A DNA stretch of 64,000 nt from NCBI GenBank assembly GCA_024672315.1, contig GCA_024672315.1_4714.1; one strand, written 5' to 3'. A program made the translations under genes and the position numbers. Below, piece after piece: positions 4,111 to 61,700 of the stretch. Positions within the stretch are counted from its first letter, which is position 1. Each line of letters begins with the position of its first letter. The DNA comes from a phage. Below the pieces are notes generated by a model, which was given only the letters and a program-made list of their open reading frames with translations, was not told where the DNA came from and did not search any database.

Positions 4111-4142
4111 CATCCTCCCAACCCGTAAGGGAAGGGAGGATG
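4111..4142. terminator. CCTCC-family hairpin H1 at convergent junction
   Basis: CATCCTCCC-AA-CCC-GTAA-GGG-AA-GGGAGGATG between stops at 4106 (+) and 4160 (-). Confidence 0.6.
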
Positions 4143-4159
4143 AAATATGCCGTTAAACG

Positions 4160-4789
4160 TTATTCAACAAACCCCGCATTCAACAGATTGTCGTAAACAC
4201 GATTAGCGACATCAACAGGAGAATGTGTGTTACTGGTGTCTATACACAACGTTTTCGCGTCGCCGAGATAGTCCATAAAATCCATGTAACGATAACGTCG
4301 TTTATTGAATGTCGCTTCATCGATGTTATCAAACATCTGATGTTTAGCGTGGCGAACACGGAACCGTCTTAAATACGTAGGATAGTCAATATCCAGATAA
4401 ACGTAGTAAGACGGCATGATAATAGACGGTAAGTTCGGCAACAACGCATCAAACAACTTAACGTTAGCATCATTAACCTGATAAACGTACGTCGAAGCAA
4501 TCGAACGATCGCTAAGCACAGTCTTCCCTTCGTTAAGGGCTGGATGAATCACCTTGTTGAAGAGATGATTGCGTTGCGACATCATCGCCAATAGTTCAGT
4601 TTCTGGATCGAATCTGTTCGTTGGAGTCTGATCTTCCAGGATAAGTTTACGAATGGCTTCTCCGTAGAGCGTACCACCAGGCTCACGTACGACACAGACA
4701 TTGTTTAAACGGCTGTGTAAAGACGAGATAACCGAACTCTTTCCTGAATAATCCAGGCCTTCAATAACGATATATTTATTACGAGACAT
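4160..4789 (-). CDS. tmk: thymidylate (dTMP) kinase
   Basis: P-loop IVIEGLDYSGKSS, REPGGT motif and DR motif (SDRSIAS) in Tmk order; track start 4801 is TTG, ATG at 4789 has GGAG RBS. Confidence 0.85.
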   Translation of the reverse strand: MSRNKYIVIEGLDYSGKSSVISSLHSRLNNVCVVREPGGTLYGEAIRKLILEDQTPTNRFDPETELLAMMSQRNHLFNKVIHPALNEGKTVLSDRSIASTYVYQVNDANVKLFDALLPNLPSIIMPSYYVYLDIDYPTYLRRFRVRHAKHQMFDNIDEATFNKRRYRYMDFMDYLGDAKTLCIDTSNTHSPVDVANRVYDNLLNAGFVE

Positions 4790-4805
4790 TCCCCGCTCCA
4801 ATTAA

Positions 4806-5987: not shown

Positions 5988-6019
5988 AACGTTTTCCTTC
6001 TTGGGTTTTGTACATGTTG

Positions 6020-6661
6020 CTAACGGCGTTTTGTACCGACCTTCCCGTTTCGATGGTCGTCAAGAATACGCCATTCTTCGAACAGGAGTTCAGCTGCGAA
6101 ATAACCTACGGCGATGCTGTCTATCGCATGCTCATCAAGATTCGCTAACACAACACCGTTTCTGGGTGTGATGTTCATGAGGTTCAACACTTTCTGGCGA
6201 ACATCGTCCTTACCAACACGGGACGTCATGATCCCAACAGCGCGTTTTGCGCTTCGGTTATCAACCCCTAAGAAAGACACCGTAGGATCAAAATCGATAA
6301 CCGTTGTCTGAATCGCTGAAAACAGCTCGCTGAGCGCCATCCCGCTTTGCTTGAAACGACCGATGAACGGTGTCTCACAAGCAACCGCTTGCGGCTGGTA
6401 CTCTTGCAATAACGTTGTCAGCGAACGACGGTGTTCTTGGATACGCGCGGCACGATTACCGTATCCAAGCGCAATATCGCCATCGGGATCGTATCGACGT
6501 GAAGCGTGCCATGTCCCCGCATACAGCAGTTCAATATCTTCGACACGCACGTCCAAACGTAGTAACGACGCACCGAGCGTATCGGTGCCAGGGTCGATTG
6601 CCAGAATATCGTAAGCGTATTCTGGTGGGATCATGGTGTTACAACAGCCTCTACTGACCAT
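6020..6661 (-). CDS. RuvC-like Holliday junction resolvase
   Basis: Motifs ILAIDPGTD (catalytic Asp), AVACETPF (Glu), DEHAIDSIAVGY (His/Asp) in RuvC order; alternative start ATG 6634 gives an ATGA overlap with the upstream gene. Confidence 0.7.
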   Translation of the reverse strand: MVSRGCCNTMIPPEYAYDILAIDPGTDTLGASLLRLDVRVEDIELLYAGTWHASRRYDPDGDIALGYGNRAARIQEHRRSLTTLLQEYQPQAVACETPFIGRFKQSGMALSELFSAIQTTVIDFDPTVSFLGVDNRSAKRAVGIMTSRVGKDDVRQKVLNLMNITPRNGVVLANLDEHAIDSIAVGYFAAELLFEEWRILDDHRNGKVGTKRR

Positions 6662-10035: not shown

Positions 10036-11124
10036 ATGAGCGACCTGGCAACAGACAATCGCACAAAAGGGAGTCAGCTAGCTCCAGACAACAACGTAAG
10101 CGTTTTCCGTATCTATGCCTTGGGTACTGTTGCTGCCGACTTTTCCAATAAAAGTCTGGAAGAAGATCCTAACCAAACGCTGGAGGTCTTTCTTGATGAG
10201 ATGATGTCAGGTGCTGACGGGAAAGTTGAAGCGGCGGGAAGCGTGAAAGAAGTCAGTGCAACAGACGCTCAAGGGAACAGCTATACAGCGAAAGCGGCAA
10301 CAACAACCAGCGTACAGTGTTATTGGTTACCTTTCGGTAGTAACCGGATGACGGCACCTAACTTGAGGAAAGGTCAGCGTGTGGTGGTCTGGCGTACCGC
10401 CGATGAAGAACAACTCTACTGGCAGCCCAAAGGAGGGGATAGCGAGCTGATGACCATGGAATCAGTTATCCTCACCGTCAGCGCACGTCCTAGCGCTAAG
10501 AAGGACCGTAAATCGATTTCAACGGAAGACTGCTATTACCTAATGGTTGATACCTTCCTCAAGAAAGCGGTTATCGGCACCAGCGCGCAGCTTGGTGAAG
10601 TTACCCAAGTCTACATGGAACTTAATCTAGACGAGGGTTACTTACAGGTTGCGGACAGCGTTCATCAAAATCTGCTGTTACTCCATTTCGTTGAACATAT
10701 GCTGCGTTATCAAAACCAGGACGACAGCATCATCGACGTGACAAAAAAGAACATCACATTCCAGTGCGAGGATACGCTCAAAGCAATTGCTAAGAACGAT
10801 ATCCGAATGAAAGCAAAAAACATTTATACCGAATGTGAGAACTTCGAGCGTACCAGCAAAACAGAAAGCGTTACGAGTCAGAATGTTTCTTTGAAGTGTG
10901 ACCGTTACACCGCGCAAGTATCAGGACAGACCACGTTCAAATGTCCTAATACGGTATTCACTGGAGCTGTAAGCTTCACAGGTGAAGACGGGAACACGAT
11001 GACGTTGAATGGGAACTTCATACACATCGCAGGCTCTTGGCGTTCACCAACCGGAACAAACGTATACACCCACGATCACGGTGGTGTAGATCGTGGTAGC
11101 GGTCGTACAGACCCGTTCCAATAA
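10036..11124 (+). CDS. hypothetical protein, possibly baseplate spike-like
   Basis: ATG with AGGAGA RBS; N-terminal YWLPF..GQRVVVW resembles gpV/gp5 OB-fold signature (weak, from memory); Gly/Thr-rich C-terminus. Confidence 0.3.
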   Translation: MSDLATDNRTKGSQLAPDNNVSVFRIYALGTVAADFSNKSLEEDPNQTLEVFLDEMMSGADGKVEAAGSVKEVSATDAQGNSYTAKAATTTSVQCYWLPFGSNRMTAPNLRKGQRVVVWRTADEEQLYWQPKGGDSELMTMESVILTVSARPSAKKDRKSISTEDCYYLMVDTFLKKAVIGTSAQLGEVTQVYMELNLDEGYLQVADSVHQNLLLLHFVEHMLRYQNQDDSIIDVTKKNITFQCEDTLKAIAKNDIRMKAKNIYTECENFERTSKTESVTSQNVSLKCDRYTAQVSGQTTFKCPNTVFTGAVSFTGEDGNTMTLNGNFIHIAGSWRSPTGTNVYTHDHGGVDRGSGRTDPFQ

Positions 11125-11144
11125 AAAAAAGAAATGCAATACAA

Positions 11145-11179
11145 CCTCCTTCCCTAGCCATCAAGGCCGGGGAAGGAGG
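11145..11179. terminator. CCTCC-family hairpin H2 (variant loop) at convergent junction
   Basis: CCTCCTTCCC ... GGGAAGGAGG stem; A8 run 14 nt upstream on plus strand. Confidence 0.55.
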
Positions 11180-14924: not shown

Positions 14925-15005
14925 GTAAAAAGATCCTCTGTTTCACGTTAACTAAACAACGTGTTGATTTCTATTTGACAGAATACGAACATTGTACGTA
15001 TCTAT

Positions 15006-15028
15006 CACTTAGGTAACGCTTACGCGTC
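15006..15028 (-). promoter_or_regulatory. partial copy of conserved motif
   Basis: CACTTAGGTAACGCTTACGCGTC shares first 11 nt with the motif. Confidence 0.3.
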
Positions 15029-15031
15029 GCG

Positions 15032-15054
15032 TTCATGATGCATGGCATCATGAA
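15032..15054. promoter_or_regulatory. perfect palindrome, operator-like
   Basis: TTCATGATGC-ATG-GCATCATGAA between two promoter-motif copies. Confidence 0.4.
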
Positions 15055-15072
15055 GGTAATATAGTCGTGAAA
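15052..15072 (-). promoter_or_regulatory. conserved motif, candidate promoter for gene 14175-14924
   Basis: GAAGGTAATATAGTCGTGAAA, ~128 nt upstream of ATG 14924; abuts palindrome 15032-15054. Confidence 0.45.
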
Positions 15073-15758
15073 GGATTTGTGTTACAGCAAGGGTTTTGTT
15101 GTTTTTAAGAAGGGATGGATTTAGAAGAGGTGTTGCAAGCAAGGAAGGTAAACGAGGATAGGTATTTTGATTTAAGTAAGTAAGATGTTATCTGTATTCG
15201 TTAAAAGTGTATTGTCTATCTTAAGTTATGTCTTATTGTTTAATCGTTTAATATTTTTATCTAAATAGGTTTAACTCTATCTTGTTTGTATATTTAAATT
15301 AAATCAATAAGCTTATCTTCAAAACAATGGATAACATGTGTTTACTACCTTAACGGTAACACATGTCATCTGTGCATTACACTTCGTTACATGCTAATTA
15401 AATCGGATAACTCAAAAAACATTTGTGATACTCTTCTTCACGTTGTTCATCAGAGTATCCCGTCTATACTCATTGCATTCGTATACGACATAACCGTTAT
15501 ACGCTAACGCTACGCTTATAGCTTGATAACTCTAAGGATAAAAACATAAACTCGCTTCGCTCGTTTAGTTTTTCTTTTTCTTAGAGTTATCCTGTTGCTC
15601 GTCTCTAAAGGACTTCGCTCCTCCCCCGTCCCCCGAAGGGGCCGAGGTCGTGGAAATTTTACTTTCCAAATACATTTACAACATCTGTAAACTTTTACTC
15701 CAGGTACTTAATCTTATCATTAGAAATTATAAAAGAGAAGAATAAACACAAACATAAA

Positions 15759-15791
15759 CCTTCCTCCAACCCAACAGGGAAGGAGGAAGGG
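15759..15791 (-). terminator. CCTCC-family hairpin H3 after gene 15807-16700
   Basis: CCTTCCTCC-AA-CCC-AACA-GGG-AA-GGAGGAAGG; identical to H9. Confidence 0.65.
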
Positions 15792-15806
15792 AGAGATTAA
15801 TTAAAA

Positions 15807-16700
15807 TTAATCAGCGACGTTATAACCGAATACGACTTTACCGTAGGTGTGAGTACCGTCAGCTAATGACAGCACCAGCACGTGGTTGTACGTAGCGTTA
15901 ACGCCCTTGTCGGTAGACTGGGCGGTAGCACCGTTATAGACAAAGGTAGCCGTTTGCAGATTGGTTTTCAGCTCATTGATGATATCATCACTTACACCGG
16001 TCTGCTCTTTGATCAGCGTAGTCAGGTTACCTGCTAAGCCTGCATCGATATTTACTTCGTTGCCGGTAATAGCTTGTAAACCTGCGGTGTAAGTACTGAA
16101 GTCTAACGGATAGGTTAACAGACGTGCTGAGGTCTTGGTACCATCGCCTTCATCAACGTAGGTTAAGTTACCTAGATTGGTAACCTTGATGATGTTAGCC
16201 AGATCCAGCGTGGTGTTATAAACTTTAACTTGAACAGAGCCGTACCACGCCAACGAATCTTCTTTGGCTTCCAGGGTGATCGTCTGGATACCATGCTGGT
16301 CGAAGGTAACCGGCGTAGCTAACGTTTCGGCTTTGATGTCTTTCGTTTTATCCAGGAACTTGTCACCGGAAGGCGTGATCATACCGTAGCGTTGAGCTAC
16401 GAGGTCGACCACATCACCGATGGTGGTGTTAGCAGTAACGTTAACACGTACGGCGATCTTCTGGAACCACTTAGCCAGATCCAGACGATGGTAGGTAACA
16501 TCGCGGTCATTGAAGTAAGGGGTACCATCACCAGGGCTAAGCGTTAAAGTTGCTTCTGGAGCAGAATCACTTTTGGATTTAAGAACGTATTTAAGATCAG
16601 AGTATTGGAATTCGGCACCAGTGTCGGCGTTGAGTTTGTTAATCTCATCAACGATAAGTTGCCAAGGTGTTTTTAAAGTAAGCGAAACTTGAGTTGCCAT
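15807..16700 (-). CDS. abundant virion-type protein, member of ~300-aa paralog family
   Basis: 297 aa; strongly biased enterobacterial codon usage; shares YxR[IL], R[YF]G[ILM] and LAW[YT]GSV blocks with 16842, 27766, 29588 and 30450; hairpin H3 follows 16 nt after stop. Confidence 0.65.
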   Translation of the reverse strand: MATQVSLTLKTPWQLIVDEINKLNADTGAEFQYSDLKYVLKSKSDSAPEATLTLSPGDGTPYFNDRDVTYHRLDLAKWFQKIAVRVNVTANTTIGDVVDLVAQRYGMITPSGDKFLDKTKDIKAETLATPVTFDQHGIQTITLEAKEDSLAWYGSVQVKVYNTTLDLANIIKVTNLGNLTYVDEGDGTKTSARLLTYPLDFSTYTAGLQAITGNEVNIDAGLAGNLTTLIKEQTGVSDDIINELKTNLQTATFVYNGATAQSTDKGVNATYNHVLVLSLADGTHTYGKVVFGYNVAD

Positions 16701-17583: not shown

Positions 17584-17615
17584 CCCCTCCTCATCCGTTA
17601 TTGGGTGAGGAGGGG
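17584..17615. terminator. CCTCC-like hairpin between convergent genes 16842-17384 and endolysin
   Basis: CCCCTCCTCA / TGAGGAGGGG 10-bp stem followed by T-rich tract on plus strand. Confidence 0.5.
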
Positions 17616-27714: not shown

Positions 27715-27724
27715 CCAAACATAA

Positions 27725-27756
27725 CCCTCCTCCAACCCGTCAGGGAAGGAGGAGGG
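27725..27756. terminator. CCTCC-family hairpin H4 at convergent junction
   Basis: CCCTCCTCC-AA-CCC-GTCA-GGG-AA-GGAGGAGGG between stops at 27714 (+) and 27766 (-). Confidence 0.6.
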
Positions 27757-27765
27757 AATATGCTG

Positions 27766-36793: not shown

Positions 36794-36827
36794 ACGGACG
36801 TAAAAAAAAAAAATAACACATAGTTAA

Positions 36828-36863
36828 CCTTCTCCCCAACCCGATGAGGGAAGGGGAGAAGGG
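36828..36863. terminator. CCTCC-family hairpin H5 at convergent junction
   Basis: CCTTCTCCCC-AA-CCC-GATGA-GGG-AA-GGGGAGAAGG; A12 run 14 nt upstream on plus strand. Confidence 0.6.
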
Positions 36864-36879
36864 CTATGCGCTATTTAAT

Positions 36880-43256: not shown

Positions 43257-43290
43257 TTTTTTCTATTCGCAACGATAAACGGCATAGAAA

Positions 43291-43320
43291 CCTCCCCCAA
43301 CCCTTACGGGCTGAGGGAGG
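43291..43320 (-). terminator. CCTCC-family hairpin H6 downstream of major virion protein gene
   Basis: CCTCCC ... CCC-TTAC-GGG ... GGGAGG, about 100 nt past stop; promoter motif 35 nt further on minus strand. Confidence 0.55.
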
Positions 43321-43419
43321 CTGACTTATGTATCACGGTGCCGGATGAATGTCCGGTGCAATGAAACCATCCGCAACGTTGTCGTCAAGAATATCATCCA
43401 ACGAAGCAGCTACGGTAGT

Positions 43420-45791: not shown

Positions 45792-46412
45792 TCACAAACG
45801 ACGCAGGCGATAATGGATGGAACGATTGGTGCAATATGAACGGAACAGCGGCAATTGCGCAACTTCCGCAAGACTCATATTAATTCGCAGGTGTTCAATA
45901 ACGGCGCTGTAGTTATCAGCAATACGATCGCTCAATAACTCTTCTGCCAATAAAGGAAGACAATCGACAACAATCGCGATCACATCCTCATTAACATAAC
46001 GCACCCGAACACTCAACGGACGTTTGTCTGGGCTGTAAGTTGGATCCGCCAAACGACGTTCAATATCACGCGGATAGCTCGTCAGTAAATGGTAATAACC
46101 ATTGTCATAACGATTGATGTACTCACACAGCACATCAACATTCTTCTCTGGCGGCAAACCTGTTTCGTCATAGTGATACGCAAACATACCACCAAGCAAG
46201 TTGTTAAGATGAACCGCAGGGTTCGCTTGTTCGTGTTCTTTCGTGATGAAGAAAGGCACGTTCTGGGCTGCGAAATAAAAACCTACATCATTGGGCGATA
46301 GTATGCCGAAAAGACTTTTAGGGTCTAATAACACCTGTAAGTCATCACGCGCATTTCGAATAATCGCGTGTTCTACCCAATTCGGAACGACGAGATATCG
46401 GAGTTCCTTCAT
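45792..46412 (-). CDS. hypothetical protein
   Basis: 206 aa; ATG with AGAGG RBS; divergent from helicase gene. Confidence 0.5.
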   Translation of the reverse strand: MKELRYLVVPNWVEHAIIRNARDDLQVLLDPKSLFGILSPNDVGFYFAAQNVPFFITKEHEQANPAVHLNNLLGGMFAYHYDETGLPPEKNVDVLCEYINRYDNGYYHLLTSYPRDIERRLADPTYSPDKRPLSVRVRYVNEDVIAIVVDCLPLLAEELLSDRIADNYSAVIEHLRINMSLAEVAQLPLFRSYCTNRSIHYRLRRL

Positions 46413-48062: not shown

Positions 48063-48090
48063 ACGCAAAAAAAAAAAAGATTGTGCGGTT

Positions 48091-48122
48091 CCCTCCTCCA
48101 ACCCGTAAGGGAAGGAGGAGGG
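48091..48122. terminator. CCTCC-family hairpin H7 at convergent junction
   Basis: CCCTCCTCC-AA-CCC-GTAA-GGG-AA-GGAGGAGGG; A12 run 12 nt upstream on plus strand. Confidence 0.6.
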
Positions 48123-48138
48123 GTTATGACCGCTTTGA

Positions 48139-49512: not shown

Positions 49513-49716
49513 CGTATTTTTACCTTTCTATGTTAGGTGGATTGCGGATAGAAGAATCAATGCATAGATTGATCGTTCTATGTTAGAAATTATTGCTGAA
49601 CTGGTTATGGTTATAACGCGTGTTTTCGTATGCTGACGGGTCGCGTATTAATAAGGCCATGACTGTATCCTCGATTATTAAGAGAAATTTACAACGGTAA
49701 CAGTAACCGCTCTTAT

Positions 49717-49740
49717 CACCTAGGTAATGTAGTCGTGAAA
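49717..49740 (-). promoter_or_regulatory. conserved motif, candidate promoter for gene 48943-49512
   Basis: CACCTAGGTAATGTAGTCGTGAAA, ~205 nt upstream of ATG. Confidence 0.45.
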
Positions 49741-49775
49741 TAAACTGGAGTAACGAGAAATAAGACAGCATAGAA

Positions 49776-49808
49776 CCCTCTCCCTTCCCTGATGGGTTGG
49801 GAGAGGGA
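49776..49808 (-). terminator. CCTCC-family hairpin H8 (inverted orientation) after gene 49814-50446
   Basis: CCCTCTCCC-TT-CCC-TGAT-GGG-TT-GGGAGAGGG; promoter motif 36 nt downstream on minus strand. Confidence 0.6.
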
Positions 49809-49813
49809 ATATA

Positions 49814-50446
49814 TCACCAATGATCGAAGGAACCGGGAGCGTTACGAACGATCTCAACTTGGAAGGTTATTGGTACTGATGGCAATGAAACATATTCGCG
49901 TTGCGATAGCAGGACGTTGTCTTCTCGCTCATCGATGCGAGCAGAACCCGTCAGAAATTGGAACATAGCGACTTGAAGCTCATCGGTGAAACGGAGGTAC
50001 TCACCGATGTGTGGTGTTGCATCATATCGAATAAGTACGTTACCAAACCGTCGTGCGATATTTGGAGTATCTGTGAACGAAACAGGGAAATCCAAAGTCA
50101 TTCCCATCGTTTCACCTGGCTTCATTTTCCGAATCGACGCAATTGGCACGTCGAAGATATTCCATTCTTCTTTCATCGTGTCTGGAAACACACCGCGATA
50201 CAAGATGGTTTTTTGATGACGATGAACGGGTTGTAAACGGTCAACCAATATTTTCAAAGGTTTAAGTTCTTCAGCCAATTCATAATCTGCTTGGATGTTC
50301 CACTTTGCCGCAAGTTCCATTAGGTTGGGATACGCGCTATATTTATTGACGATAGCCCAGTTAACATTACGCAAATCGATAGGAAGGAATTTGATAATTT
50401 CCTTGTTGAATATCCATTGGTTTAATTTCTTAATCTCCGAAAGCAT
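49814..50446 (-). CDS. hypothetical protein, weak ADP-ribosyltransferase-like motif arrangement
   Basis: Start moved to ATG 50446 to remove 113-nt overlap; LYRG, VSFTDT and DEREDN spaced roughly like R-S-E ART motifs (speculative). Confidence 0.4.
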   Translation of the reverse strand: MLSEIKKLNQWIFNKEIIKFLPIDLRNVNWAIVNKYSAYPNLMELAAKWNIQADYELAEELKPLKILVDRLQPVHRHQKTILYRGVFPDTMKEEWNIFDVPIASIRKMKPGETMGMTLDFPVSFTDTPNIARRFGNVLIRYDATPHIGEYLRFTDELQVAMFQFLTGSARIDEREDNVLLSQREYVSLPSVPITFQVEIVRNAPGSFDHW

Positions 50447-50462
50447 GATGTACTCACTACAG

Positions 50463-51830
50463 CTAAACGGTTGGGCGAATGGTGTTGTCTTTTTCTGGTG
50501 CAAGCCATAACGTGACCGTACCATGGCATGTCCACTGTGGTTCACGTACAGAAGAACCTGCCATCGTAACAGCACAATCGGTACGCATGATAACCCCGTA
50601 TGCTTCGCAGAGATTGTTATCCTGCATCCACACGACTTTAGCAGGCATGCCGGGATACAACAAATCCATGTTTGCGTATTCCCACACCAACTGCATTGTT
50701 CTACCGCGTAATCCAGCAGTATTACTTAATTCACGCCATCGGTTATCGGTTACGCGTCCCATCCCTTTCGCCACCTTCACGTTATCGCTACGTTCTTCAG
50801 TTACGTACTCGCTAACGTTTACAGTACGGCTGATTATCGTATCGCCCCCTTTTGATAATGTCATTCCCTGACTCATCTGACTTGCCGAAACAAAACGCCC
50901 ACCCGCATTACCTAACAACGAAGCCGCGTTATTGATGTCGCTTACCGACGCCCCTCTCGTACATGCAATTTCCACGTATTTGTCACGGTTGATCCAAGTC
51001 TTGTCCATGCCCGGAAACATATCGGCAGGATAGTTGTAAAAGATAGCCGTGCGCCGACCGTCAGAGAAACGGGTTTCGTCGTAGAGAGGATAAATATACA
51101 GATACGGAGATTGATAATAACAACCGACGTCCGCCGAATAAATACCGACCTGGTTCTGGATTTTGTCTACGAGATCCATTGCGTTGGTGCCGTGCGGAAG
51201 AATAAGCAACTTGAACAGGTTGTCGTTATTCGGTGCAACAATGTCTACACCCTGCATTTTGAATCCGGTGTCGGCTTCAACCGCAGAAAGTATCTTGCTG
51301 AATTCGAGTCGTAACACATCCAGCACTTTCGACCCGGTATAGTTTTCACCGGTTTCTGATTGCATGAAGCTTTCAAGAACAGGATCGAACAGTTGAAATT
51401 GAAGATCGACCATTTGTTCGTAGTCTTTCTTCGAAGAATCGGTTGCGGTACGTTCGTCGTTAGCAGACATACGACTGTCCACGGTTGTTAAACAAACCGC
51501 CCGATAGACGTAAGCTTGCGCAGCATCGTCTACGGTTTGGCGTTGTCCGCGCATCAGGCTGTACGCCTGCACGATGATGCGCATTTTAAGTTGTTGTTGG
51601 TACGGTAAGATGTATTTTCCGTAACTGCCTGGCGGGAACTTTACAGAGATATAAAGTTCATCTCCTGCATTACGTTCATAGTCTCGATACGTGTGGACTT
51701 GAGTCACTAAAGGAACAGACACCGTCATTGACGGCGTGATTAATTCCGCGGTGACTTTATACGCAACAGCAACTGCTTCCTGCGCAAATGTACCGATGTA
51801 CCGTCCTAACGGCGTCTGTTTGTAATCCAT
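50463..51830 (-). CDS. hypothetical virion-type protein
   Basis: 455 aa; tightly packed operon. Confidence 0.55.
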   Translation of the reverse strand: MDYKQTPLGRYIGTFAQEAVAVAYKVTAELITPSMTVSVPLVTQVHTYRDYERNAGDELYISVKFPPGSYGKYILPYQQQLKMRIIVQAYSLMRGQRQTVDDAAQAYVYRAVCLTTVDSRMSANDERTATDSSKKDYEQMVDLQFQLFDPVLESFMQSETGENYTGSKVLDVLRLEFSKILSAVEADTGFKMQGVDIVAPNNDNLFKLLILPHGTNAMDLVDKIQNQVGIYSADVGCYYQSPYLYIYPLYDETRFSDGRRTAIFYNYPADMFPGMDKTWINRDKYVEIACTRGASVSDINNAASLLGNAGGRFVSASQMSQGMTLSKGGDTIISRTVNVSEYVTEERSDNVKVAKGMGRVTDNRWRELSNTAGLRGRTMQLVWEYANMDLLYPGMPAKVVWMQDNNLCEAYGVIMRTDCAVTMAGSSVREPQWTCHGTVTLWLAPEKDNTIRPTV

Positions 51831-55679: not shown

Positions 55680-55730
55680 CGCAGATTCCTGTTTGAAAGA
55701 TAAGATATCACATGATGGTCGACAGCATAA

Positions 55731-55753
55731 AGCCCACCCCGAAGGGCGGGCTG
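55731..55753 (-). terminator. hairpin after 1128-aa gene
   Basis: AGCCCACCC-CGAA-GGGCGGGCT imperfect stem. Confidence 0.4.
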
Positions 55754-55767
55754 TTTATGCGTACGGA

Positions 55768-58700
55768 TTACTTGTAGGCACCGCAATGGGCTTTGATGAG
55801 GAAAAGCACCGCTTGCATCGGTTTATTGAACTGTTGCCATAACGTCAATGCCGGATGGAACAACCAATCTTCCAGGCCGAGAACAATACCGTAGTTAACG
55901 ACATTATTAACGTCGTTCTCAACGTTGAGTTCGCTGTCCAGGAATTTATCGATTGAACGCAGGGTCTGCATGGCATTGTCAGCAATAAGCCAAGCTTCAT
56001 GCGCTTCACGAGCCGCACGCAGCACTGCTTCCAGTTCGCTGATAGTGGCTACCGGTAATTCCTCACTGGTAAGGTCGTCAGATACCGTAAACTGGCGATT
56101 GATACCGGTGTAGATCCACTGCATCAGTTTCGCTGCTTCCTCGTTCGGGTTGTTACGCGTTGTCGCATAAGTCGCGCTCACCTTCACGATGTGTGTTTCA
56201 CCAAGATACGCCTTGGAACCAACACCTTTACGATCGCTGTCTTTCCACGGTTGTACGGTAGCGACCATGAGCTTATCCCATTTCTGAATAGGAATACGCT
56301 TCAGACCAACAACCGATCCGGCGGATGTTTCGGACTGGTTGCTCTTCCGCACGTCGCTGAGTTCACGATCGATAGCAACGATTAATTCACGCGTCATGTT
56401 ACCAAGCATTTTGATTTCACCCAACGCAGCGATGAGCTTCTTCACATCGGTAACAGGTTCACCACCGATGGTAAGATGACGGATGAAACGTTTCAGAATA
56501 ATCCGTTCTGCTGCTGGGTTACCGCGACGCGCTTTAGCCAATGCTTGCTGTGTTTCGGCGAACAGCTTATCCCATGGAGCCGTAGCGGCGGTATAGTAAC
56601 GGTGGTTGGTTTCAATCCAGTTACCGATACGGTTGACCGCGTTCTTAACGGTATCCATGAATCCTTCCATCGCAATTTCGGTAGCTTCGACGTTACCCTG
56701 GAAGTTATCAGGACCGATCTCACGTGCCGCGACCAGAATACCTTCCACCGCGCTCACCGCGTGGCGACCGATAGCTAGATTTCGCTGCGCTTCCTCAGCA
56801 CGCTCAACGAATTCCACCACAGCTGGATCGTCAACGATTTCCGCCTCGGCAATAGCACGTGTACCTGCATCGCCTTCCAGTGTTTCGATGGTGACAACAG
56901 GATCGTTTTCACCAGCAACATCCTGGTATTCTTCCTGTTTGAGATCGCCGTTATCAGCCGATGCGACAGCGGTGAGTATACGAACGGTAACATCGCCGAG
57001 TTCTTTTGAGGCAAACCCGTAAACAACGCATGCTGTTTTTGCGAAGTTCATCAGCGTGCGTGTGCGTTTAACGATGTAGCCGACATCGTAATCATTACCG
57101 CTCTTATCGATGTCACGGATTAACTGTTCAGCCGTTTCTTGAAGGATAGATACTGACTTCAAGAGATCGTCTTCAAACAGTTTCTTCGACACCTCAACCA
57201 ACATATCAGCATTGATGTTGGGTGGGGTTTTGTCGCCCTGCTGTTTCATCTCGCTTAATTCATCGCGGAACTTATTGATTCCATCTAAAGCGGCACTGGC
57301 GGTATGTCCGAACGCAGCCACGCCTGGCATTGTTGTTGCTGTCAGCATGTCCGCATCAGCGTTTGGACTTTCGCCTTCTTTAAGATCCTTCAGCTGGTCG
57401 AAGAACTTACGAGATGCTTCAGCGATACGTTTGCTGTCTTTAACTGCATTTACGATCTTATCGACGGATTTAGCGTCGTTTGCAAGCAGCGTATCGAGTT
57501 TGTTCCATTCGACATCGACTTTCGCTGCATCCTTAGTATCGCTTGGTGGAGGAAGCAGTTTTGTCACCGGGGTCGTGCGTTGTTCTTTGGTCAGCTTGTT
57601 GGCCTTCTCTTCGATTTTTTTCTTATTAACACCAAAGAGATTTTTCAAACGCGCCACGAGGGCTTTTAAGAACTTCGCGACCGCTTCGTAAACCGATTTC
57701 AGAATCTGTTTAAAGCGACCTGGCTGCTTTTCCCCGTCTTCCAGATTGAGATCGCTGTTCAGTGCGACATCAAGCTGTTTGTACGATTCCATGATGTATT
57801 CGTCTTTGATTTCAGGACGAATCTCGAAGCTTTCCATCGGACCTTCAGCCGGACGGAATTCCATTTTCAGTTCGCCTTGCAGGGTAGGGTCGACAATGGC
57901 GATAGCTTCACCCTGACCATCAGCGTTAAAGCGTTCAGCGTAACGAGTACGACGAACAATAACACTCTTATCCCCATCAAGACGACGTACCACCATGGTG
58001 CCAGGAATGTACGGTTGTTCTGTTTCAATGACGGTTACATCTGCCTCACCTTCACCGAGAATAACCGATGCGCGCTGTTCAACAACCGGAACATCTAATA
58101 CGCCACGGGCTTCCAGCTCTTGATGAATTTCGAACGACTCTTGTTTCAGATCTTCATCTTCTTCGTTTTCGTCGTCTTCATCATCGTCACCTTCGGTGTT
58201 TTCATCACCCTTGGTGGTTGTGTCGTCGGTGGCACCAGCGTCAGCGTCGGTGTTAGCAGGTTCTTCGGACGCAGGTTCGGTGGTGCTGTCCTCGGTGGGT
58301 GTTTCGTCAGTGTTATCGACATCAACATCACCTTGCAGTTCTGTTTCCTGAGCAACTGCTTCGGCTTTCTGCTCACCGGTATTACCGTCATTAGCGTCGA
58401 CAACAGGTTGTTCGTCAGCGACGGTATCTTCAACCTTTTCTACTTTCTCCACGACACGTTTAATCACGGTGACTTTGATGGGTTCTTCCGTTGTTTTGGT
58501 TTCTGGCGTCACCTCGGCTGCCGCAGCCGCTGTTTCAGCAACAGGTTCTGCTTTTTCCGGTTCGACGACATTACCTTTAACGCCTTCGGTGGTTTCTGCA
58601 GGTTGCGCTGCCTGTTCGATTTGCGCTGGATTGGTTGGATCGATGGCGTTAGCCGCATCCTGAATCTTGTTCTTCAGGTTGTCGCGGTCAGCGTTAACGG

Positions 58701-59154
58701 TCGGGTCGTTGGTCACTTTCGGTGCCGGTGTTTCGGTCGGTGCGTTTGCCGGATACGGGTTCTTCGGCTCTTCACCAGGTGCGGTCGGCACCGCGATCAG
58801 AACGAACGGTTGAACATCGTTACCATCTTCCATGGTCACGCCACCATTGCTCGGTGTGAAACGAATTCGCAAACTACCATCAATAGGACGGGTCACAATA
58901 ACAGCACGTACGACATCTTCACCGTTCTCATCCGTGCTACGAATCACACGAACGGCGTCATCAACAGTAGCCCCTTCCTCGAGCGTATCTGATTCGATCG
59001 TCGCTTCGATGCTGTCTGGCCGTGCCGCTGTAGGTAATGCGATCACTTGCTCTTCTTTATCAGTAGAAAGCGTTGCTTTGACTTCGATAGGTGTATCGCC
59101 GCTTTCCAGGTTAAGATGCGACTTACGCATCAGATCAGCTAACGATTTTTTCAT
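55768..59154 (-). CDS. very large virion-type protein with central acidic low-complexity segment
   Basis: 1128 aa; AGAGGA RBS; central D/E/T-rich stretch; no enzymatic motif recognised. Confidence 0.6.
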   Translation of the reverse strand: MKKSLADLMRKSHLNLESGDTPIEVKATLSTDKEEQVIALPTAARPDSIEATIESDTLEEGATVDDAVRVIRSTDENGEDVVRAVIVTRPIDGSLRIRFTPSNGGVTMEDGNDVQPFVLIAVPTAPGEEPKNPYPANAPTETPAPKVTNDPTVNADRDNLKNKIQDAANAIDPTNPAQIEQAAQPAETTEGVKGNVVEPEKAEPVAETAAAAAEVTPETKTTEEPIKVTVIKRVVEKVEKVEDTVADEQPVVDANDGNTGEQKAEAVAQETELQGDVDVDNTDETPTEDSTTEPASEEPANTDADAGATDDTTTKGDENTEGDDDEDDENEEDEDLKQESFEIHQELEARGVLDVPVVEQRASVILGEGEADVTVIETEQPYIPGTMVVRRLDGDKSVIVRRTRYAERFNADGQGEAIAIVDPTLQGELKMEFRPAEGPMESFEIRPEIKDEYIMESYKQLDVALNSDLNLEDGEKQPGRFKQILKSVYEAVAKFLKALVARLKNLFGVNKKKIEEKANKLTKEQRTTPVTKLLPPPSDTKDAAKVDVEWNKLDTLLANDAKSVDKIVNAVKDSKRIAEASRKFFDQLKDLKEGESPNADADMLTATTMPGVAAFGHTASAALDGINKFRDELSEMKQQGDKTPPNINADMLVEVSKKLFEDDLLKSVSILQETAEQLIRDIDKSGNDYDVGYIVKRTRTLMNFAKTACVVYGFASKELGDVTVRILTAVASADNGDLKQEEYQDVAGENDPVVTIETLEGDAGTRAIAEAEIVDDPAVVEFVERAEEAQRNLAIGRHAVSAVEGILVAAREIGPDNFQGNVEATEIAMEGFMDTVKNAVNRIGNWIETNHRYYTAATAPWDKLFAETQQALAKARRGNPAAERIILKRFIRHLTIGGEPVTDVKKLIAALGEIKMLGNMTRELIVAIDRELSDVRKSNQSETSAGSVVGLKRIPIQKWDKLMVATVQPWKDSDRKGVGSKAYLGETHIVKVSATYATTRNNPNEEAAKLMQWIYTGINRQFTVSDDLTSEELPVATISELEAVLRAAREAHEAWLIADNAMQTLRSIDKFLDSELNVENDVNNVVNYGIVLGLEDWLFHPALTLWQQFNKPMQAVLFLIKAHCGAYK

Positions 59155-59169
59155 AAAGCGTTATTCCTC

Positions 59170-60276
59170 TTAAAAGTAATATTTCAGCGCCTCGCGAGAG
59201 ACATCAAGCATAGCCGCTGTTGAATTCGTAAAGAACTCGGCATAGCCCACAAGCGGCACCTTGATCCACGCGGTATACGCTGTAAGGTATCGAGAAAGGG
59301 CTACCATAGCATCATCAGAAGCAGTAGTAACTGACAACTGACCTTGTTGACGATAAACGTCGTTAAGTTTTGCTTGTAGATTCCCTGCGATTTCGAGTAA
59401 CTCGTTGGCGTACTTTTTACGATGGTAACTAACCAGTAAATCAACACCCTTATTCACAGACTCGAGTAGCACACCAACTTGTTCTAATGATGGCATTGTA
59501 ACCACCATATCCCGTTCAACGGACGGTACATCCTGGACTTCAAACCGTGCGGATTGAATAGCAAGGGATTGTTGAATTGGACCAGAACCTGAGGTGGTAA
59601 CCTGATCGAGTCGTAGCGTACGGTTGCCCAGTAACGTTACGTTGACAAGTCTCGATTCGTTCAGCGTACCGTAGACTTTATGCAGTAACGTATACGCGTC
59701 ACGGTTAATCACATCGATTAATGCGGTATCCGTCTGTTTTAAGATAATGTCGAGCGCTCTATCTAACGTATTAGCGAACTGCTTGAAATCATCACGGAAC
59801 GACGAAGACAAGAGATATTCAGCGATTGCCAAATTCTGTTTGTATAACGTATTCCCAGTTGTGAAGTCGAATCCAAAACTGTTCCCATACCGTAGGTGCG
59901 GTGCCAGCGTTGACGAAGCTTCGAAGCTTTGCGCGATGGGTTTACGACCAACGGCTTTTGTGTAGTGACGGCGGATGTTGCTGAGTTCGAGCTGTAGTGC
60001 GCGACTACGATCGATAAACCGTGCGATAAACGCAGTAATGTTCCGCAACGTTGTCCAGATTGCATCGATGATAGCTTTGATGATTTTCATCGCAAGCTGA
60101 TCGTACGATTCCATCGTGAGGAGATCAGCACTTTCTGTGGTATAACTGGTTGCTGGAATACCGCCTGCTTGCTGATAAATAAGCTGGTGAATTTTTCGTT
60201 GCGTTGCTGTCTCTGGCACAGGTAATGTTTTTAACAAGCTTAACGCTTGAATCTGTCCATCATAGGTCTGCAGCAT
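59170..60276 (-). CDS. hypothetical virion-type protein
   Basis: Start placed at ATG 60276 with GAGGAA RBS (track start 60327 lies inside upstream gene). Confidence 0.5.
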   Translation of the reverse strand: MLQTYDGQIQALSLLKTLPVPETATQRKIHQLIYQQAGGIPATSYTTESADLLTMESYDQLAMKIIKAIIDAIWTTLRNITAFIARFIDRSRALQLELSNIRRHYTKAVGRKPIAQSFEASSTLAPHLRYGNSFGFDFTTGNTLYKQNLAIAEYLLSSSFRDDFKQFANTLDRALDIILKQTDTALIDVINRDAYTLLHKVYGTLNESRLVNVTLLGNRTLRLDQVTTSGSGPIQQSLAIQSARFEVQDVPSVERDMVVTMPSLEQVGVLLESVNKGVDLLVSYHRKKYANELLEIAGNLQAKLNDVYRQQGQLSVTTASDDAMVALSRYLTAYTAWIKVPLVGYAEFFTNSTAAMLDVSREALKYYF

Positions 60277-61561
60277 TGCTGGTTTCCTCAAGTTCGAGAT
60301 GCGCGTCAAGATAATCATTAAGACCATCGATGACGTCGCAGACAGTTAACAGGAATCGGGCAAAAGCAACCGCCTGGAAGCCGACGACGTTACGCGCGAT
60401 ACCCACGCGTTGAACGATAGCGGATGCTGCGGTATCGCTGTTATCCATCTGTTGTAGCAAACGCTCGTAAGGTTGAATCCATTCGTCCTGGTCGGCAAGG
60501 CTTGCTTCAAGACAACGTTTAAATTCCAACTGTCGTAGCGTAGACCATAACGTACTTAATGCGTTGATGATCGCGTTGGTTCCGTCGATAACATCGTTTA
60601 ACGGCAAGAAACGGAATCCGTCTTTTGCTGATTGGAAAGATACGGCTTCCCACACAACGCTGAACTGCGTTCCTGTTGCGTCTTCGATGTTGTGTAATTT
60701 AAGATAGGAAGCACCAACAGGTACGTCAACGACCAGATCGTCTGTTCCGGTAGGCGTTAACGGCTTCTCGCATAACGCATCGTTGATGACCTCGAGAATA
60801 TTCTCCCAACAGGCTTCGTTTTCTGCAGCGATACCTTCTTTGTTATCCACTGATGGTGCTTTTAGTAGCTGCATTAATAACGGATCGAGTTGACGATGCC
60901 ATGCTGCGAGGATTCCTGTGTTCGTTACGATGTTTTCTGCGGTTTGTCGTAAATCAGCAATACTGCTTACCGCGCCGCCTTTCGGATGAAGATATCGCCA
61001 GTTGTAGGGAAAGTTCTCCCAGAATGCATTATCTTCATCGACGTCGTATTCGGAAATAGTTTTCAGCGCAGCCGCTTTCTTTAATAACGGCTTCACCTGA
61101 CGAACGAATCGACGATAACAACGATTGCAGATATCGATCGCGTAACGGTATAACTCGTTCATGTAAAGCCATAACGCACGGGTTGCTTCTTTTGCGGTCT
61201 TGTCAAAACTTTCCATGTTCAAGCTCATCCCGCTGGAAGTTTCCTCTTCCAGACCCTCGATGATTTGGTTTGGGTCCATTCCCATTCCGGCTGCTGCGGT
61301 TGTTGCGATATGTTTGATCGTGCTGATATCGCGTTCTTCAACTTCAGCCATGTTTGGGACAATATCCAGCCGGAGTTTATTTAATGTTTGAAGGTGTTGT
61401 TCACCTTCTTTCATCGCCACGTTTGTTTCGTCGATTGAGTGAAACTGATTCTCAATATTACTGGCATCGAGAATATTGCCAGCGATACCGAACGATTCTA
61501 CAGGTTCATCATCAATCCCTTGAAACAACGATGTCATGGGTTGTTGTAACACGTTTTCCAT
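60260..61561 (-). CDS. head-internal-protein-like paralog with acidic N-terminal region
   Basis: 433 aa; AGGAG RBS; N-terminus and block IKHIATTAAAGMGMD parallel IRQIASTSAANLGMSD of 61710-62999. Confidence 0.55.
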   Translation of the reverse strand: MENVLQQPMTSLFQGIDDEPVESFGIAGNILDASNIENQFHSIDETNVAMKEGEQHLQTLNKLRLDIVPNMAEVEERDISTIKHIATTAAAGMGMDPNQIIEGLEEETSSGMSLNMESFDKTAKEATRALWLYMNELYRYAIDICNRCYRRFVRQVKPLLKKAAALKTISEYDVDEDNAFWENFPYNWRYLHPKGGAVSSIADLRQTAENIVTNTGILAAWHRQLDPLLMQLLKAPSVDNKEGIAAENEACWENILEVINDALCEKPLTPTGTDDLVVDVPVGASYLKLHNIEDATGTQFSVVWEAVSFQSAKDGFRFLPLNDVIDGTNAIINALSTLWSTLRQLEFKRCLEASLADQDEWIQPYERLLQQMDNSDTAASAIVQRVGIARNVVGFQAVAFARFLLTVCDVIDGLNDYLDAHLELEETSNAADL

Positions 61562-61667
61562 TTGGGACTCCTACGTAGGAAAATCTTGGCGGGTGATCAT
61601 GTCCGCCATTTACCTTCTGAACCGTTGATTCAGAAGTCAAAAGATAACCGGATACCAACGCCATAAA

Positions 61668-61700
61668 CCTTCCTCCAACCCAACAGGGAAGGAGGAAGGG
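61668..61700 (-). terminator. CCTCC-family hairpin H9 after gene 61710-62999
   Basis: Identical core to H3; shared upstream CATAAACC. Confidence 0.65.

What the first reader, a model, noticed from the sequence alone, without database searches (positions are those of the whole stretch)
4111..61700. Family of near-identical CCTCC/GGAGG hairpins with fixed internal architecture placed right after stop codons
Nine elements (4111, 11145, 15759, 27725, 36828, 43291, 48091, 49776, 61668) share a 9-10 bp polypyrimidine/polypurine stem, an A-A bulge, a CCC/GGG inner stem and a 4-5 nt loop. H3 and H9 are identical over ~40 nt. Eight of the nine sit 5-18 nt after a stop codon; H6 sits about 100 nt after the stop of 43420-45642. 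Each convergent gene junction carries one of them. Conservation of stem sequence, not just structure, is more than intrinsic termination needs, so a protein or RNase recognition site is possible. The purine arm is a perfect Shine-Dalgarno sequence.
Basis: seen in the sequence. Interest (0 to 1): 0.65.

Follow-up and report, generated by a model that had tools for sequence, protein, structure and literature searches.

The report
Jumbo-phage terminator hairpins with TATG tail
The repeated CCTCC/GGAGG hairpins are almost certainly the transcription stop signals of a Goslar-like nucleus-forming jumbo phage, a local version of a terminator motif already mapped in phage phiKZ; most carry a short TATG "tail" that in phiKZ marks where RNAs end and that is spelled like that phage family's late-promoter core.

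Summary
They fold at -24 to -31 kcal/mol on both strands and occupy all six convergent junctions plus four co-directional gene ends.

The window is a ~95% identical relative of E. coli jumbo phage Goslar (Chimalliviridae), which carries about 38 such elements.

The kind is already known. ONT-cappable-seq mapped 61 phiKZ terminators with the motif CCYCCCC-loop-GGGRRGG-TTATK-YYGT, and 201phi2-1 has the same. The window's copies share that grammar (pyrimidine arm, purine arm, TATG(YYGT) tail) but have longer, composite stems and fail the literal phiKZ pattern. I therefore call them a new variant of a known kind.

New here: the TATG tail sits 0-8 nt after the stem in 28/40 (minus strand) and 18/40 (plus strand) Goslar elements, against 2-3% background. 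It appears on the strand where a gene ends. It persists in Erwinia and Ralstonia chimalliviruses whose stems have the opposite polarity. In published phiKZ tables, RNA 3' ends map within about 3 nt of the tail's G, while 0 of 119 transcription starts do.

The Shine-Dalgarno reading fits at most 1-2 of 10 elements. No evidence supports a protein or RNase site.

The parts
4111..4142 (.). H1: bidirectional terminator hairpin at a convergent junction (+ORF ends 4106, -ORF ends 4160). Tails: CATA at 4102-4105 (TATG on the minus strand) and TATG at 4146-4149 (TATGCCGT).
   Evidence: (dG -24.6 / -23.5)
11145..11179 (.). H2: bidirectional terminator hairpin at a convergent junction. Variant inner stem (AGCC/GGCC). 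No TATG tail. An A8 run lies upstream on the plus strand (T-run on the minus strand). Goslar's depositors annotated the orthologue as a putative terminator.
   Evidence: (dG -29.6 / -27.6)
15759..15790 (-). H3: terminator after minus-strand gene 15807-16700 (co-directional context). Tail TATG on the minus strand (plus-strand coordinates 15753-15756), followed by a U-rich stretch.
   Evidence: (dG -24.5)
17584..17615 (.). No tail within 8 nt. Goslar's depositors annotated the orthologue as a putative terminator.
   Evidence: (dG -26.7 / -31.5)
27725..27756 (.). H4: bidirectional terminator at a convergent junction, with both tails (CATA 27720-27723; TATG 27759-27762, TATGCTGTT).
   Evidence: (dG -29.5 / -26.8)
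36828..36862 (.). H5: bidirectional terminator at a convergent junction, with both tails (CATA 36819-36822; TATG 36865-36868). An A-run upstream varies in length between relatives.
   Evidence: (dG -29.4 / -30.9)
43291..43320 (-). H6: terminator 99 nt after the stop of the major capsid gene (43420-45642, minus strand), with both tails (CATA 43283-43286 = TATGCCGTT on the minus strand; TATG 43327-43330). phiKZ has its equivalent hairpin ~92 nt after its own capsid gene.
   Evidence: (dG -30.2)
48091..48122 (.). H7: bidirectional terminator at a convergent junction. Plus-strand tail TATG at 48125-48128; an A12 run upstream. The inner 14 nt are exactly inverted in a relative (IMG/VR contig 3300045988_173921).
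   Evidence: (dG -26.7 / -25.8)
49776..49807 (-). H8: terminator after minus-strand gene 49814-50575. The inner module is flipped relative to Goslar and to the other copies. The minus-strand tail TATG (49769-49772) supplies the start codon of a 62-aa ORF (49583-49771), the only case in the window where the purine arm could act as a Shine-Dalgarno.
   Evidence: (dG -24.1)
61668..61699 (-). H9: terminator after minus-strand gene 61710-62999. Minus-strand tail TATG at 61662-61665. Identical to H3 over 40 nt; its loop (AACA) differs from the orthologues (GTAA) and matches H3.
   Evidence: (dG -28.2)
3466..3495 (+). Terminator with an ordinary (not pyrimidine/purine) stem but the same tail: GAGCCTGTCC-TTCG-GGGCAGGCTT, then TT, then TATGCTGTT, after the +gene ending 3460.
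55726..55759 (.). Terminator with an ordinary stem (AGCCCACCC-CGAA-GGGCGGGCT, 55731-55752) after minus-strand gene 55768-59154, flanked by CATA (55726-55729; TATGCTGTCG on the minus strand) and TATG (55756-55759).

Best explanation
The elements are factor-independent transcription terminators of a Goslar-like nucleus-forming jumbo phage (Chimalliviridae). They are the local version of the sequence-conserved terminator already mapped in phiKZ and 201phi2-1.

Proposed mechanism: the nascent RNA folds into a very stable hairpin (pyrimidine 5' arm, purine 3' arm), and the polymerase releases the transcript a few nucleotides later, at or just past a conserved (U)UAUG(YYGU) tail that takes the place of the usual U-tract. 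Because the element is a near-palindrome, it works in both directions at convergent gene pairs, where it carries a tail on both sides. At co-directional junctions it carries the tail mainly on the transcribed strand.

Shown: the structure, the placement, the tail and its strand rule, conservation across relatives, and, in phiKZ only, RNA 3' ends at the tail.

Inferred: that the same happens in this phage; that the enzyme concerned is a phage RNA polymerase (in phiKZ-like phages transcription does not depend on the host polymerase); and that the tail acts as the pause or release site. UAU|G fits the pyrimidine(-1)/G(+1) elemental-pause rule of multisubunit polymerases, which I cite from my own knowledge.
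For: Identity of the genome: 95% identical to Goslar, whose record annotates three of the orthologues (H2, H4 and the new element at 17584) as putative terminators.

Structure: dG -24 to -31 kcal/mol and 0/200 shuffles as stable, on both strands.

Placement: 6-17 nt after stop codons, 6/6 convergent junctions in the window, and about 17/19 in Goslar.

Known homologue: 61 phiKZ terminators mapped by ONT-cappable-seq share BCCYCCCC-HWWD-GGGRRGG-BY-TTATK-YYGT. 201phi2-1 motif A (n=59) resembles it, 15 of that phage's termination sites are bidirectional, and eight were tested in vivo. My own scan of phiKZ finds the same grammar, including double-sided tails at convergent junctions.

Tail: TATG within 0-8 nt of the stem in 28/40 (minus) and 18/40 (plus) Goslar elements against 3.0% and 1.8% background (p ~1e-33 and 5e-21). 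A plus-strand tail occurs at 13/18 convergent against 4/19 co-directional junctions (p=0.003). The extended tail TATGYYGY occurs in 17/46 tails against 14/164 other intergenic TATGs (p=1e-5). The tail is rare after other intergenic hairpins (5/34) and absent after intragenic ones (0/47).

Experimental anchor in phiKZ: mapped 3' ends lie 1 nt before to 2 nt after the tail's G in six terminators placed exactly on the genome, and within about -4 to +3 in 16 read from the table. None of 119 mapped transcription starts sits on a tail.

Depth: the same tails flank LucasX hairpins (5/6) and the opposite-polarity stems of RAY and RP12. A T4 control shows none on pyrimidine/purine hairpins.
Against: No transcript data exist for this phage or for Goslar in the library I could search, so termination here is inferred by homology of the motif.

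The literal phiKZ 3'-arm-plus-tail pattern does not hit any of the ten elements at up to 1 mismatch.

Three of the ten (H2, 17584, and H7 on the minus strand) lack a tail within 8 nt, so the tail is not obligatory.

Plus-strand tails are U-poor (for example AAUAUGCU), which is unusual for intrinsic termination.

ONT-cappable-seq 3' ends have a resolution of about 2 nt, and the supplementary table was machine-read from a PDF, so offsets may be off by 1.

3' ends 5-9 nt after a stem are expected for any intrinsic terminator, so their coincidence with TATG does not by itself prove that TATG is read as a signal.
Confidence: 0.78

Rival explanations
1. Terminator plus restart promoter. The hairpin stops the upstream transcript, and the adjacent TATG is a working late promoter of the non-virion RNA polymerase (start at the G) for the next gene. 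The unit would be an insulator cassette.
For: TATG is the phiKZ late-promoter core, with G as +1, and is bound by the beta-like subunit gp123. The minus-strand tail is most frequent (18/20) where a downstream gene follows. TATG recurs upstream of plus-strand genes in divergent regions without a hairpin. In the window, a weak hairpin plus TATG lies 136 nt upstream of the capsid gene. Goslar keeps a phiKZ-like early-promoter word, so promoter grammar is probably shared.
Against: Tails are also present at convergent junctions (minus 9/16, plus 12/16), where they would fire antisense into the opposing gene. In phiKZ, 0 of 119 mapped starts lie on a tail; real promoters sit 11-40 nt further downstream as separate elements. 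In about 5 Goslar cases the tail ATG is itself the start codon, which is incompatible with a start at the G. In hairpin-free spacers, sense-strand TATG is only 1.6-fold enriched, the same as antisense. P119L has no upstream hairpin.
Confidence: 0.12
2. Translational device. The purine arm is the Shine-Dalgarno sequence and the tail ATG the start codon of the next gene. The hairpin hides the Shine-Dalgarno until a ribosome terminating 6-17 nt upstream melts it (translational coupling).
For: GGAGG lies 5-9 nt before the ATG. In the window, H8's tail ATG opens a 62-aa ORF orthologous to Goslar_00047. In Goslar the tail ATG equals an annotated start at 49772, 117666, 152272 and 166924, and gives an in-frame extension at about 84362. 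Stop codons sit within ribosome-footprint distance of the stem.
Against: About 41 of 46 tails open ORFs of 2-60 codons with no annotated gene, many of them antisense at convergent junctions. The T and A before ATG are invariant, which a start codon does not need. RAY and RP12 put the pyrimidine arm next to the same tail. A -25 kcal/mol hairpin would strongly block initiation.
Confidence: 0.05
3. Recognition site for a specific protein or RNase, for example for mRNA 3'-end protection, processing, or export from the phage nucleus.
For: Sequence, not just structure, is conserved. Pyrimidine/purine arms and the tail persist from phiKZ to Goslar even though the major capsid proteins are only ~25-33% identical. 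Transcription inside a nucleus-like compartment makes an export or stability mark conceivable (inference).
Against: No direct evidence. The inner module and its AA loop flip orientation between close relatives. Arm sequences vary by paired transitions. Arm polarity is reversed in RAY and RP12. The stems are too short for classical RNase III sites. No Rfam family matches.
Confidence: 0.04
4. Selfish or passively spreading palindromic repeat (REP- or MITE-like), homogenised by gene conversion, with no function beyond being a hairpin.
For: H3 and H9 are identical over 40 nt, and H9's loop matches H3 rather than its own orthologues. Inner modules flip. Many copies share AACCCGTAAGGGAA.
Against: The copies sit strictly at gene ends, at nearly every convergent junction, and never inside genes. 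Tail presence follows the direction of transcription. The grammar is conserved across very distant phages, where copying cannot explain it.
Confidence: 0.01

Closest known systems
phiKZ conserved intrinsic-terminator motif, 5'-BCCYCCCC-HWWD-GGGRRGG-BY-TTATK-YYGT-3' (Putzeys et al. 2024, PMC10914365; 61 sites mapped by ONT-cappable-seq)
   Same: C-rich pyrimidine 5' arm, complementary purine 3' arm, TTAT(G) tail with a YYGT extension, position after stop codons, double-sided copies at convergent genes, and a copy ~90-100 nt after the capsid gene.
   Different: The window's stems are 9-10 bp outer arms plus a 2x2 AA loop plus a CCC/GGG inner stem, instead of 7 bp around a tetraloop. The tail is almost always TATG (phiKZ allows G or T) and lies at a variable 0-7 nt from the stem. 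The literal phiKZ pattern does not match. There are no transcript data for this phage.
201phi2-1 terminator motifs A and A+B (Poppeliers et al. 2024, PMC11512511)
   Same: A sequence-conserved terminator resembling phiKZ's. Elongated hairpins arise where two motifs combine. 15 termination sites are bidirectional. Eight terminators were tested in a reporter assay, several of them strong.
   Different: I could not see the motif sequences (they are in figures and tables that are not held), so the resemblance of the elongated form to the Goslar composite stem is untested.
Canonical bacterial Rho-independent terminators, including bidirectional ones at convergent genes
   Same: A GC-rich hairpin right after the gene, release 5-9 nt past the stem (phiKZ data), and palindromes serving both strands.
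   Different: The U-tract is replaced by a short fixed word (UAUG). Plus-strand tails are U-poor. The stem composition is strictly pyrimidine then purine and is conserved in sequence.
phiKZ late promoter core TATG (Yakunina et al. 2015, PMC4666361; promoter-analogue structure, PMC12809450)
   Same: The identical four letters, in the same orientation relative to transcription.
   Different: At promoters, the G is where RNA starts and no hairpin precedes it (P119L). At terminator tails, RNA ends there and no starts were mapped (0/119). Tails tend to continue YYGT, whereas other intergenic TATGs do not.

Membership tests
phiKZ-type conserved chimallivirus terminator (Putzeys 2024 motif) | C-rich polypyrimidine 5' arm (CCYCCCC-like) | tested here: met
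   10/10 window elements have 7-10 nt pyrimidine arms with at least 4 C.
phiKZ-type conserved chimallivirus terminator (Putzeys 2024 motif) | Complementary G-rich polypurine 3' arm (GGGRRGG-like) | tested here: met
   Perfect or one-mismatch complements in all ten.
phiKZ-type conserved chimallivirus terminator (Putzeys 2024 motif) | Arms separated only by a ~4-nt loop (HWWD) | tested here: not met
   In the window the arms are separated by a 12-16 nt inner module (AA-CCC-loop-GGG-AA or a variant). Simple phiKZ-like forms do exist elsewhere in Goslar (117670, 140971).
phiKZ-type conserved chimallivirus terminator (Putzeys 2024 motif) | TTATK tail about 2 nt after the stem, continuing YYGT | tested here: inconclusive
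   TATG lies 1-6 nt after the stem in 7/10 (minus) and 5/10 (plus), and Goslar tails are enriched for YYGY. However, the literal pattern GGGRRGGBYTTATK with up to 1 mismatch hits none of the ten.
phiKZ-type conserved chimallivirus terminator (Putzeys 2024 motif) | RNA 3' ends map at the element | not testable with these tools
   No Goslar-type transcriptome was found. In phiKZ, 3' ends fall 1 nt before to 2 nt after the tail G.
Canonical Rho-independent terminator | Stable GC-rich hairpin directly after a gene | tested here: met
Canonical Rho-independent terminator | U-tract (at least ~5 U in the 8 nt after the stem) | tested here: inconclusive
   The consensus scan of 1-20 kb listed none of H1, H2, H3 or 17584, partly because it does not handle composite stems. 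By eye, the minus-strand tails of H1, H3, H4 and H6 have 5-6 U in 8, H8 and H9 have 4, and plus-strand tails have only 2-3.
phiKZ-type late promoter | TATG with transcription starting at the G | not testable with these tools
   The word is present, but starts cannot be mapped here. In phiKZ, 0/119 mapped starts lie on terminator tails.
RNase III processing site | About 20 bp or more of near-continuous double-stranded RNA | tested here: not met
   The stems are 12-14 bp interrupted by a 2x2 loop. The length criterion is from my own knowledge.
Any curated RNA family (Rfam 15) | Match at the gathering threshold | tested here: not met
   0 matches in the whole window.

The most novel reading that the evidence does not exclude
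In chimalliviruses one four-letter word, TATG, may serve as both 'start' and 'stop'. The pocket in the beta-like subunit of the non-virion RNA polymerase binds non-template TATG at promoters and stays in the elongating enzyme. It may also grip TATG during elongation and pause the polymerase with the RNA 3' end at UAU|G. When a stable hairpin has just formed 1-6 nt upstream, that pause would become termination. This would explain four things: why the tail is conserved from phiKZ to Goslar, RAY and RP12 even where stem polarity is reversed; why it follows the strand on which a gene ends; why mapped phiKZ 3' ends sit on it while starts do not; and why TATG is the second most depleted tetramer in Goslar (observed/expected 0.63-0.73). 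I found no paper that makes this link.
Probability: 0.25. Interest if true: 0.75.

Novelty: new variant of a known kind. Interest (0 to 1): 0.4.

Why it matters
How the split, sigma-less RNA polymerases of nucleus-forming jumbo phages choose where to start and stop is still open. Published work calls the specificity of a 4-nt promoter puzzling. Showing that the same word closes transcription units across the family, next to a hairpin, gives a concrete, cheap experiment on termination and pausing by these enzymes. Practically, the elements give a transcription-unit map for Goslar-like phages, which are used as E. coli models of the phage nucleus. They also provide a set of compact bidirectional terminators, and a rule (hairpin plus TATGYYGT) for annotating terminators in other chimalliviruses where U-tract-based predictors miss them; Goslar's record marks only 3 of the 10 orthologues (H2, H4 and 17584).

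Tried and rejected
1. Extended-stem idea (CAUA pairing with UAUG). RNAfold does pair them where both are present (H4, H5, H6, H9), but co-directional elements mostly have only one of the two, so the pairing is a by-product of two-sided tails.

2. Palindromic DNA site for a dimeric protein. This predicts symmetry everywhere, which is not seen.

3. Covariation among orthologues. The four Goslar-like genomes are too close: the outer stems are invariant and only loops and inner-module flips vary, so there is no statistical power. The paired transitions seen between paralogous copies are suggestive only.

4. The literal phiKZ motif search gave no hit on the family.

5. Rfam gave nothing.

6. TATG as a general promoter in hairpin-free spacers: only weak, strand-symmetric enrichment.

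7. Papers and tables I could not get: Ceyssens 2014 and the 2026 promoter-terminator coupling preprint are not held, and the supplements of both PMC versions are not held. The bioRxiv supplement of Putzeys et al. was held, and I used parts 7, 8 and 13 only, so phiKZ P001-P007, P127-P149 and about two thirds of the terminator table were not examined.

8. The generic uninterrupted-stem scan misses composite stems, so it served only as a control class.

9. I built no covariance model, because enumeration by two independent scans (arm-first, tail-first) agreed.


Full report
WHAT IS THERE. All nine hairpins are at the stated coordinates. A scan for pyrimidine runs followed by their reverse complement finds these nine plus a tenth at 17584-17615. 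Each folds into the predicted structure with dG -23.5 to -31.5 kcal/mol and z-scores of -3.9 to -8.0, and none of 200 dinucleotide shuffles folds as well. This holds on the minus strand for all ten and on the plus strand for the six at convergent junctions. The 'A-A bulge' is a symmetric 2x2 internal loop. The full architecture holds for H1, H3, H4, H5, H7 and H9. H8 has it flipped, H6 is asymmetric, and H2 and the new element have other inner stems. Outer arms differ between copies by paired C/T and G/A changes. Eight of the nine lie 6-17 nt after the stop of a minus-strand gene, and H6 lies 99 nt after the capsid gene. All six convergent junctions in the window carry one. The other four mark co-directional gene ends.

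WHERE THE WINDOW COMES FROM. It is 95% identical to the first 64 kb of Escherichia phage Goslar, a 237-kb chimallivirus. Its capsid protein is 99% identical to Goslar's, and the next-best match is only ~33%. Goslar's record marks three of the orthologues (H2, H4 and 17584) as 'putative terminator'. I fetched the whole Goslar genome and encoded its 247 coding sequences, all of which translate cleanly. Goslar has about 38 elements of this kind, at about 17 of its 19 convergent junctions and otherwise just after minus-strand genes. Two IMG/VR contigs (237.5 kb and 182.9 kb) are further close relatives.

Most elements are followed, 0-8 nt after the stem, by TATG. In Goslar this holds for 28/40 on the minus strand and 18/40 on the plus strand, against backgrounds of 3.0% and 1.8% (p about 1e-33 and 5e-21). 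In the window it is 7/10 and 5/10. The tail continues as TATG-Y-Y-G-T: TATGYYGY occurs in 17/46 tails against 14/164 other intergenic TATGs (p=1e-5). Among uninterrupted-stem hairpins, only 5/34 intergenic ones that are not pyrimidine/purine carry the tail, and 0/47 intragenic ones do. A tail-first search of the window nevertheless finds two terminators with ordinary stems and the same tail, at 3466-3495 and 55726-55759.

THE STRAND RULE. At co-directional minus-strand junctions the tail is on the minus strand (18/20) and seldom on the plus strand (5/20). At convergent junctions it is on both strands (minus 9/16, plus 12/16). After reassigning two borderline cases, the plus-strand tail occurs at 13/18 convergent against 4/19 co-directional junctions (p=0.003). 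The tail therefore follows the strand on which a gene ends, even where no gene follows. Only about 5 of 46 tail ATGs coincide with a real gene start; the rest open ORFs of 2-60 codons.

WHAT IS ALREADY KNOWN. Putzeys et al. 2024 mapped phiKZ transcript ends with ONT-cappable-seq. They report that most predicted intrinsic terminators share 5'-BCCYCCCC-HWWD-GGGRRGG-BY-TTATK-YYGT-3', 'a distinct stem-loop followed by a TTAT region', in 61 terminators, six of them in bidirectional pairs between convergent genes. Poppeliers et al. 2024 found a closely similar motif (n=59) in 201phi2-1, elongated hairpins where two motifs combine, and 15 bidirectional sites, and tested eight terminators in vivo. My scan of 50 kb of phiKZ shows the same grammar directly, for example CATAgg-CCCTCCC-TTCG-GGGAGGG-ctTTATGttgt 92 nt after the capsid gene, with two-sided tails at convergent junctions. 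The window's hairpins are therefore the Goslar-lineage form of a known terminator class. They are not literal matches: the phiKZ 3'-arm-plus-tail pattern hits none of them at up to 1 mismatch, and the arms are separated by a 12-16 nt inner module rather than a tetraloop. Rfam has no family for them.

HOW DEEP THE GRAMMAR GOES. Xanthomonas phage LucasX (55% GC) has pyrimidine/purine hairpins with tails in 5/6 cases. Erwinia phage RAY and Ralstonia phage RP12 have no such stems in the sampled regions. Instead they use purine-first stems (AGAGGAGGAGC-ATT-GCTCCTCCTCT; AGCGAGAGGACCC-TGAT-GGGTCCTCTCGCT), flanked by the same CATAA...(T)TATGCCGT. Reading their annotation tables, convergent junctions again carry two-sided tails and co-directional ones mostly a single tail. 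A T4 control has no tailed pyrimidine/purine hairpins, and 3/16 generic hairpins have a tail. The tail is thus the most widely conserved part, and the stem's composition and polarity are lineage-specific.

START OR STOP. TATG is also the phiKZ late-promoter core. The G is +1, each base is needed in vitro, and the beta-like subunit gp123 binds the word on the non-template strand. I therefore tested whether tails are restart promoters, using the supplementary tables of the Putzeys preprint.

- For six phiKZ terminators that I could place exactly on the genome, the mapped 3' end lies 1 nt before to 2 nt after the tail's G, that is 5-9 nt past the stem. For 16 read from the table, it lies within about -4 to +3 (the machine-read text adds an uncertainty of about 1 nt).
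- Among 119 mapped phiKZ starts (P008-P126), none lies on a terminator's own tail. Two (P049, P075) use a second TATG 11-12 nt past the stem. At least nine have a terminator tail 20-40 nt upstream of a separate early, middle or late promoter.
- P119L has no upstream hairpin.
- In Goslar, hairpin-free spacers show only a 1.6-fold enrichment of TATG, equal on both strands.

Taken together, the tail marks where RNA ends. The restart-promoter reading explains neither the convergent junctions nor the phiKZ start map.

MECHANISM, WITH ITS STATUS.
- Shown: a stable two-strand hairpin at gene ends; a conserved tail that follows the direction of transcription; phiKZ 3' ends at the tail.
- Inferred: that the same holds in this phage, that a phage RNA polymerase is the enzyme concerned, and that UAU|G is the pause or release point standing in for a U-tract. 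Pyrimidine at -1 and G at +1, with G-rich RNA about 10 nt upstream, is the elemental-pause consensus of multisubunit polymerases (my own knowledge, not tested here).
- More speculative: the promoter-reading pocket may cause that pause.
- TATG is the second most under-represented tetramer in Goslar after CTAG (observed/expected 0.63 and 0.73 on the two strands). This fits a word that is avoided elsewhere, but coding constraints were not controlled.

WHY THE STEMS LOOK ALIKE. Across the four Goslar-like genomes the outer stems are invariant and variation is confined to the loops. At H7 and H8 the central 14 nt are exactly reverse-complemented between relatives (AACCCGTAAGGGAA against TTCCCTTACGGGTT; H8 also shows loop changes). 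The orientation of the AA/UU loop is therefore not constrained. This argues against a strand-specific protein site and points to template switching or recombination within the palindrome. H9's loop in the window matches H3 rather than its own orthologues, giving a 40-nt identity, which suggests gene conversion between copies. Copying can explain the near-identity within a genome, but not the conservation of the grammar between phages whose capsid proteins are ~25-33% identical.

THE SHINE-DALGARNO POINT. The purine arm does read GGAGG, and in the window H8's tail ATG opens a 62-aa ORF orthologous to an annotated Goslar gene. That is one clear case in ten. The reversed polarity of the stems in RAY and RP12 rules it out as the general reason.

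VERDICT. The elements are a new variant of a known kind. The added value is the tail, its strand rule, its family-wide conservation, and its identity with the promoter core, which I did not find discussed in the papers I could search.

Noticed in passing
window 2520-2527 and 15056-15063 (plus-strand GTAATATA; minus-strand reading TTTCACGGCTATATTACTT and TTTCACGACTATATTACCT): A repeated motif containing TATATTAC, pointing leftwards. It also occurs in Goslar divergent regions at about 142.8, 173.0 and 226.7 kb. It matches the word shared by the phiKZ early promoters listed in Putzeys' Table S3 (...GATCTATATTACTA...), so these are probably early (virion RNA polymerase) promoters.
   Followed up: partly
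window 14925-15758: A stretch of about 830 nt with no convincing ORF between H3 and the next minus-strand gene. It contains the early-promoter-like motif at 15056, but about 700 nt remain unexplained (possibly a non-coding RNA). Goslar has the same gap, and another at 82.5-83.25 kb. No Rfam hit.
   Followed up: partly
window 48100-48113 (H7) and 49785-49798 (H8), compared with Goslar and IMG/VR contig 3300045988_173921: The central 14 nt of the hairpin are exactly reverse-complemented between close relatives while the outer arms stay fixed. This is a 'flip' of the kind expected from template switching or recombination inside a palindrome.
   Followed up: yes
window 61662-61701 compared with 15753-15792: H9 and H3 are identical over 40 nt. 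H9's loop (AACA) differs from the GTAA of its orthologues in three relatives and equals H3's, which suggests gene conversion between paralogous terminators.
   Followed up: partly
Goslar whole genome (L001-L005): TATG is the second most under-represented tetranucleotide after CTAG under a second-order expectation (observed/expected 0.63 on the plus strand, 0.73 on the minus strand). Inside genes it is half as frequent on the antisense strand as on the sense strand.
   Followed up: partly
window about 11120-11135, 36805-36818 and 48068-48079: Homopolymer A-runs of 8-14 nt lie just upstream of H2, H5 and H7 on the plus strand (T-runs 12-20 nt after the hairpin on the minus strand). They vary in length between the four related genomes. 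These are the elements with a weak or missing minus-strand TATG tail, so a distal U-run may substitute for it.
   Followed up: no
L115 (Erwinia phage RAY) 3331-3354 and 21836-21860; L116 (Ralstonia phage RP12) 6415-6442, 17265-17288, 27375-27404 and 37112-37139: In these distant chimalliviruses the terminator-like hairpins have the purine arm first and the pyrimidine arm second, the opposite of Goslar and phiKZ, yet keep the CATAA...TTATGCCGT flanks.
   Followed up: partly
window 45778-45775 (minus strand): A weaker hairpin plus TATG lies right after the stop of gene 45792-46412 and 136 nt upstream of the major capsid gene start. It could be the capsid gene's late promoter or another terminator tail.
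   Followed up: no
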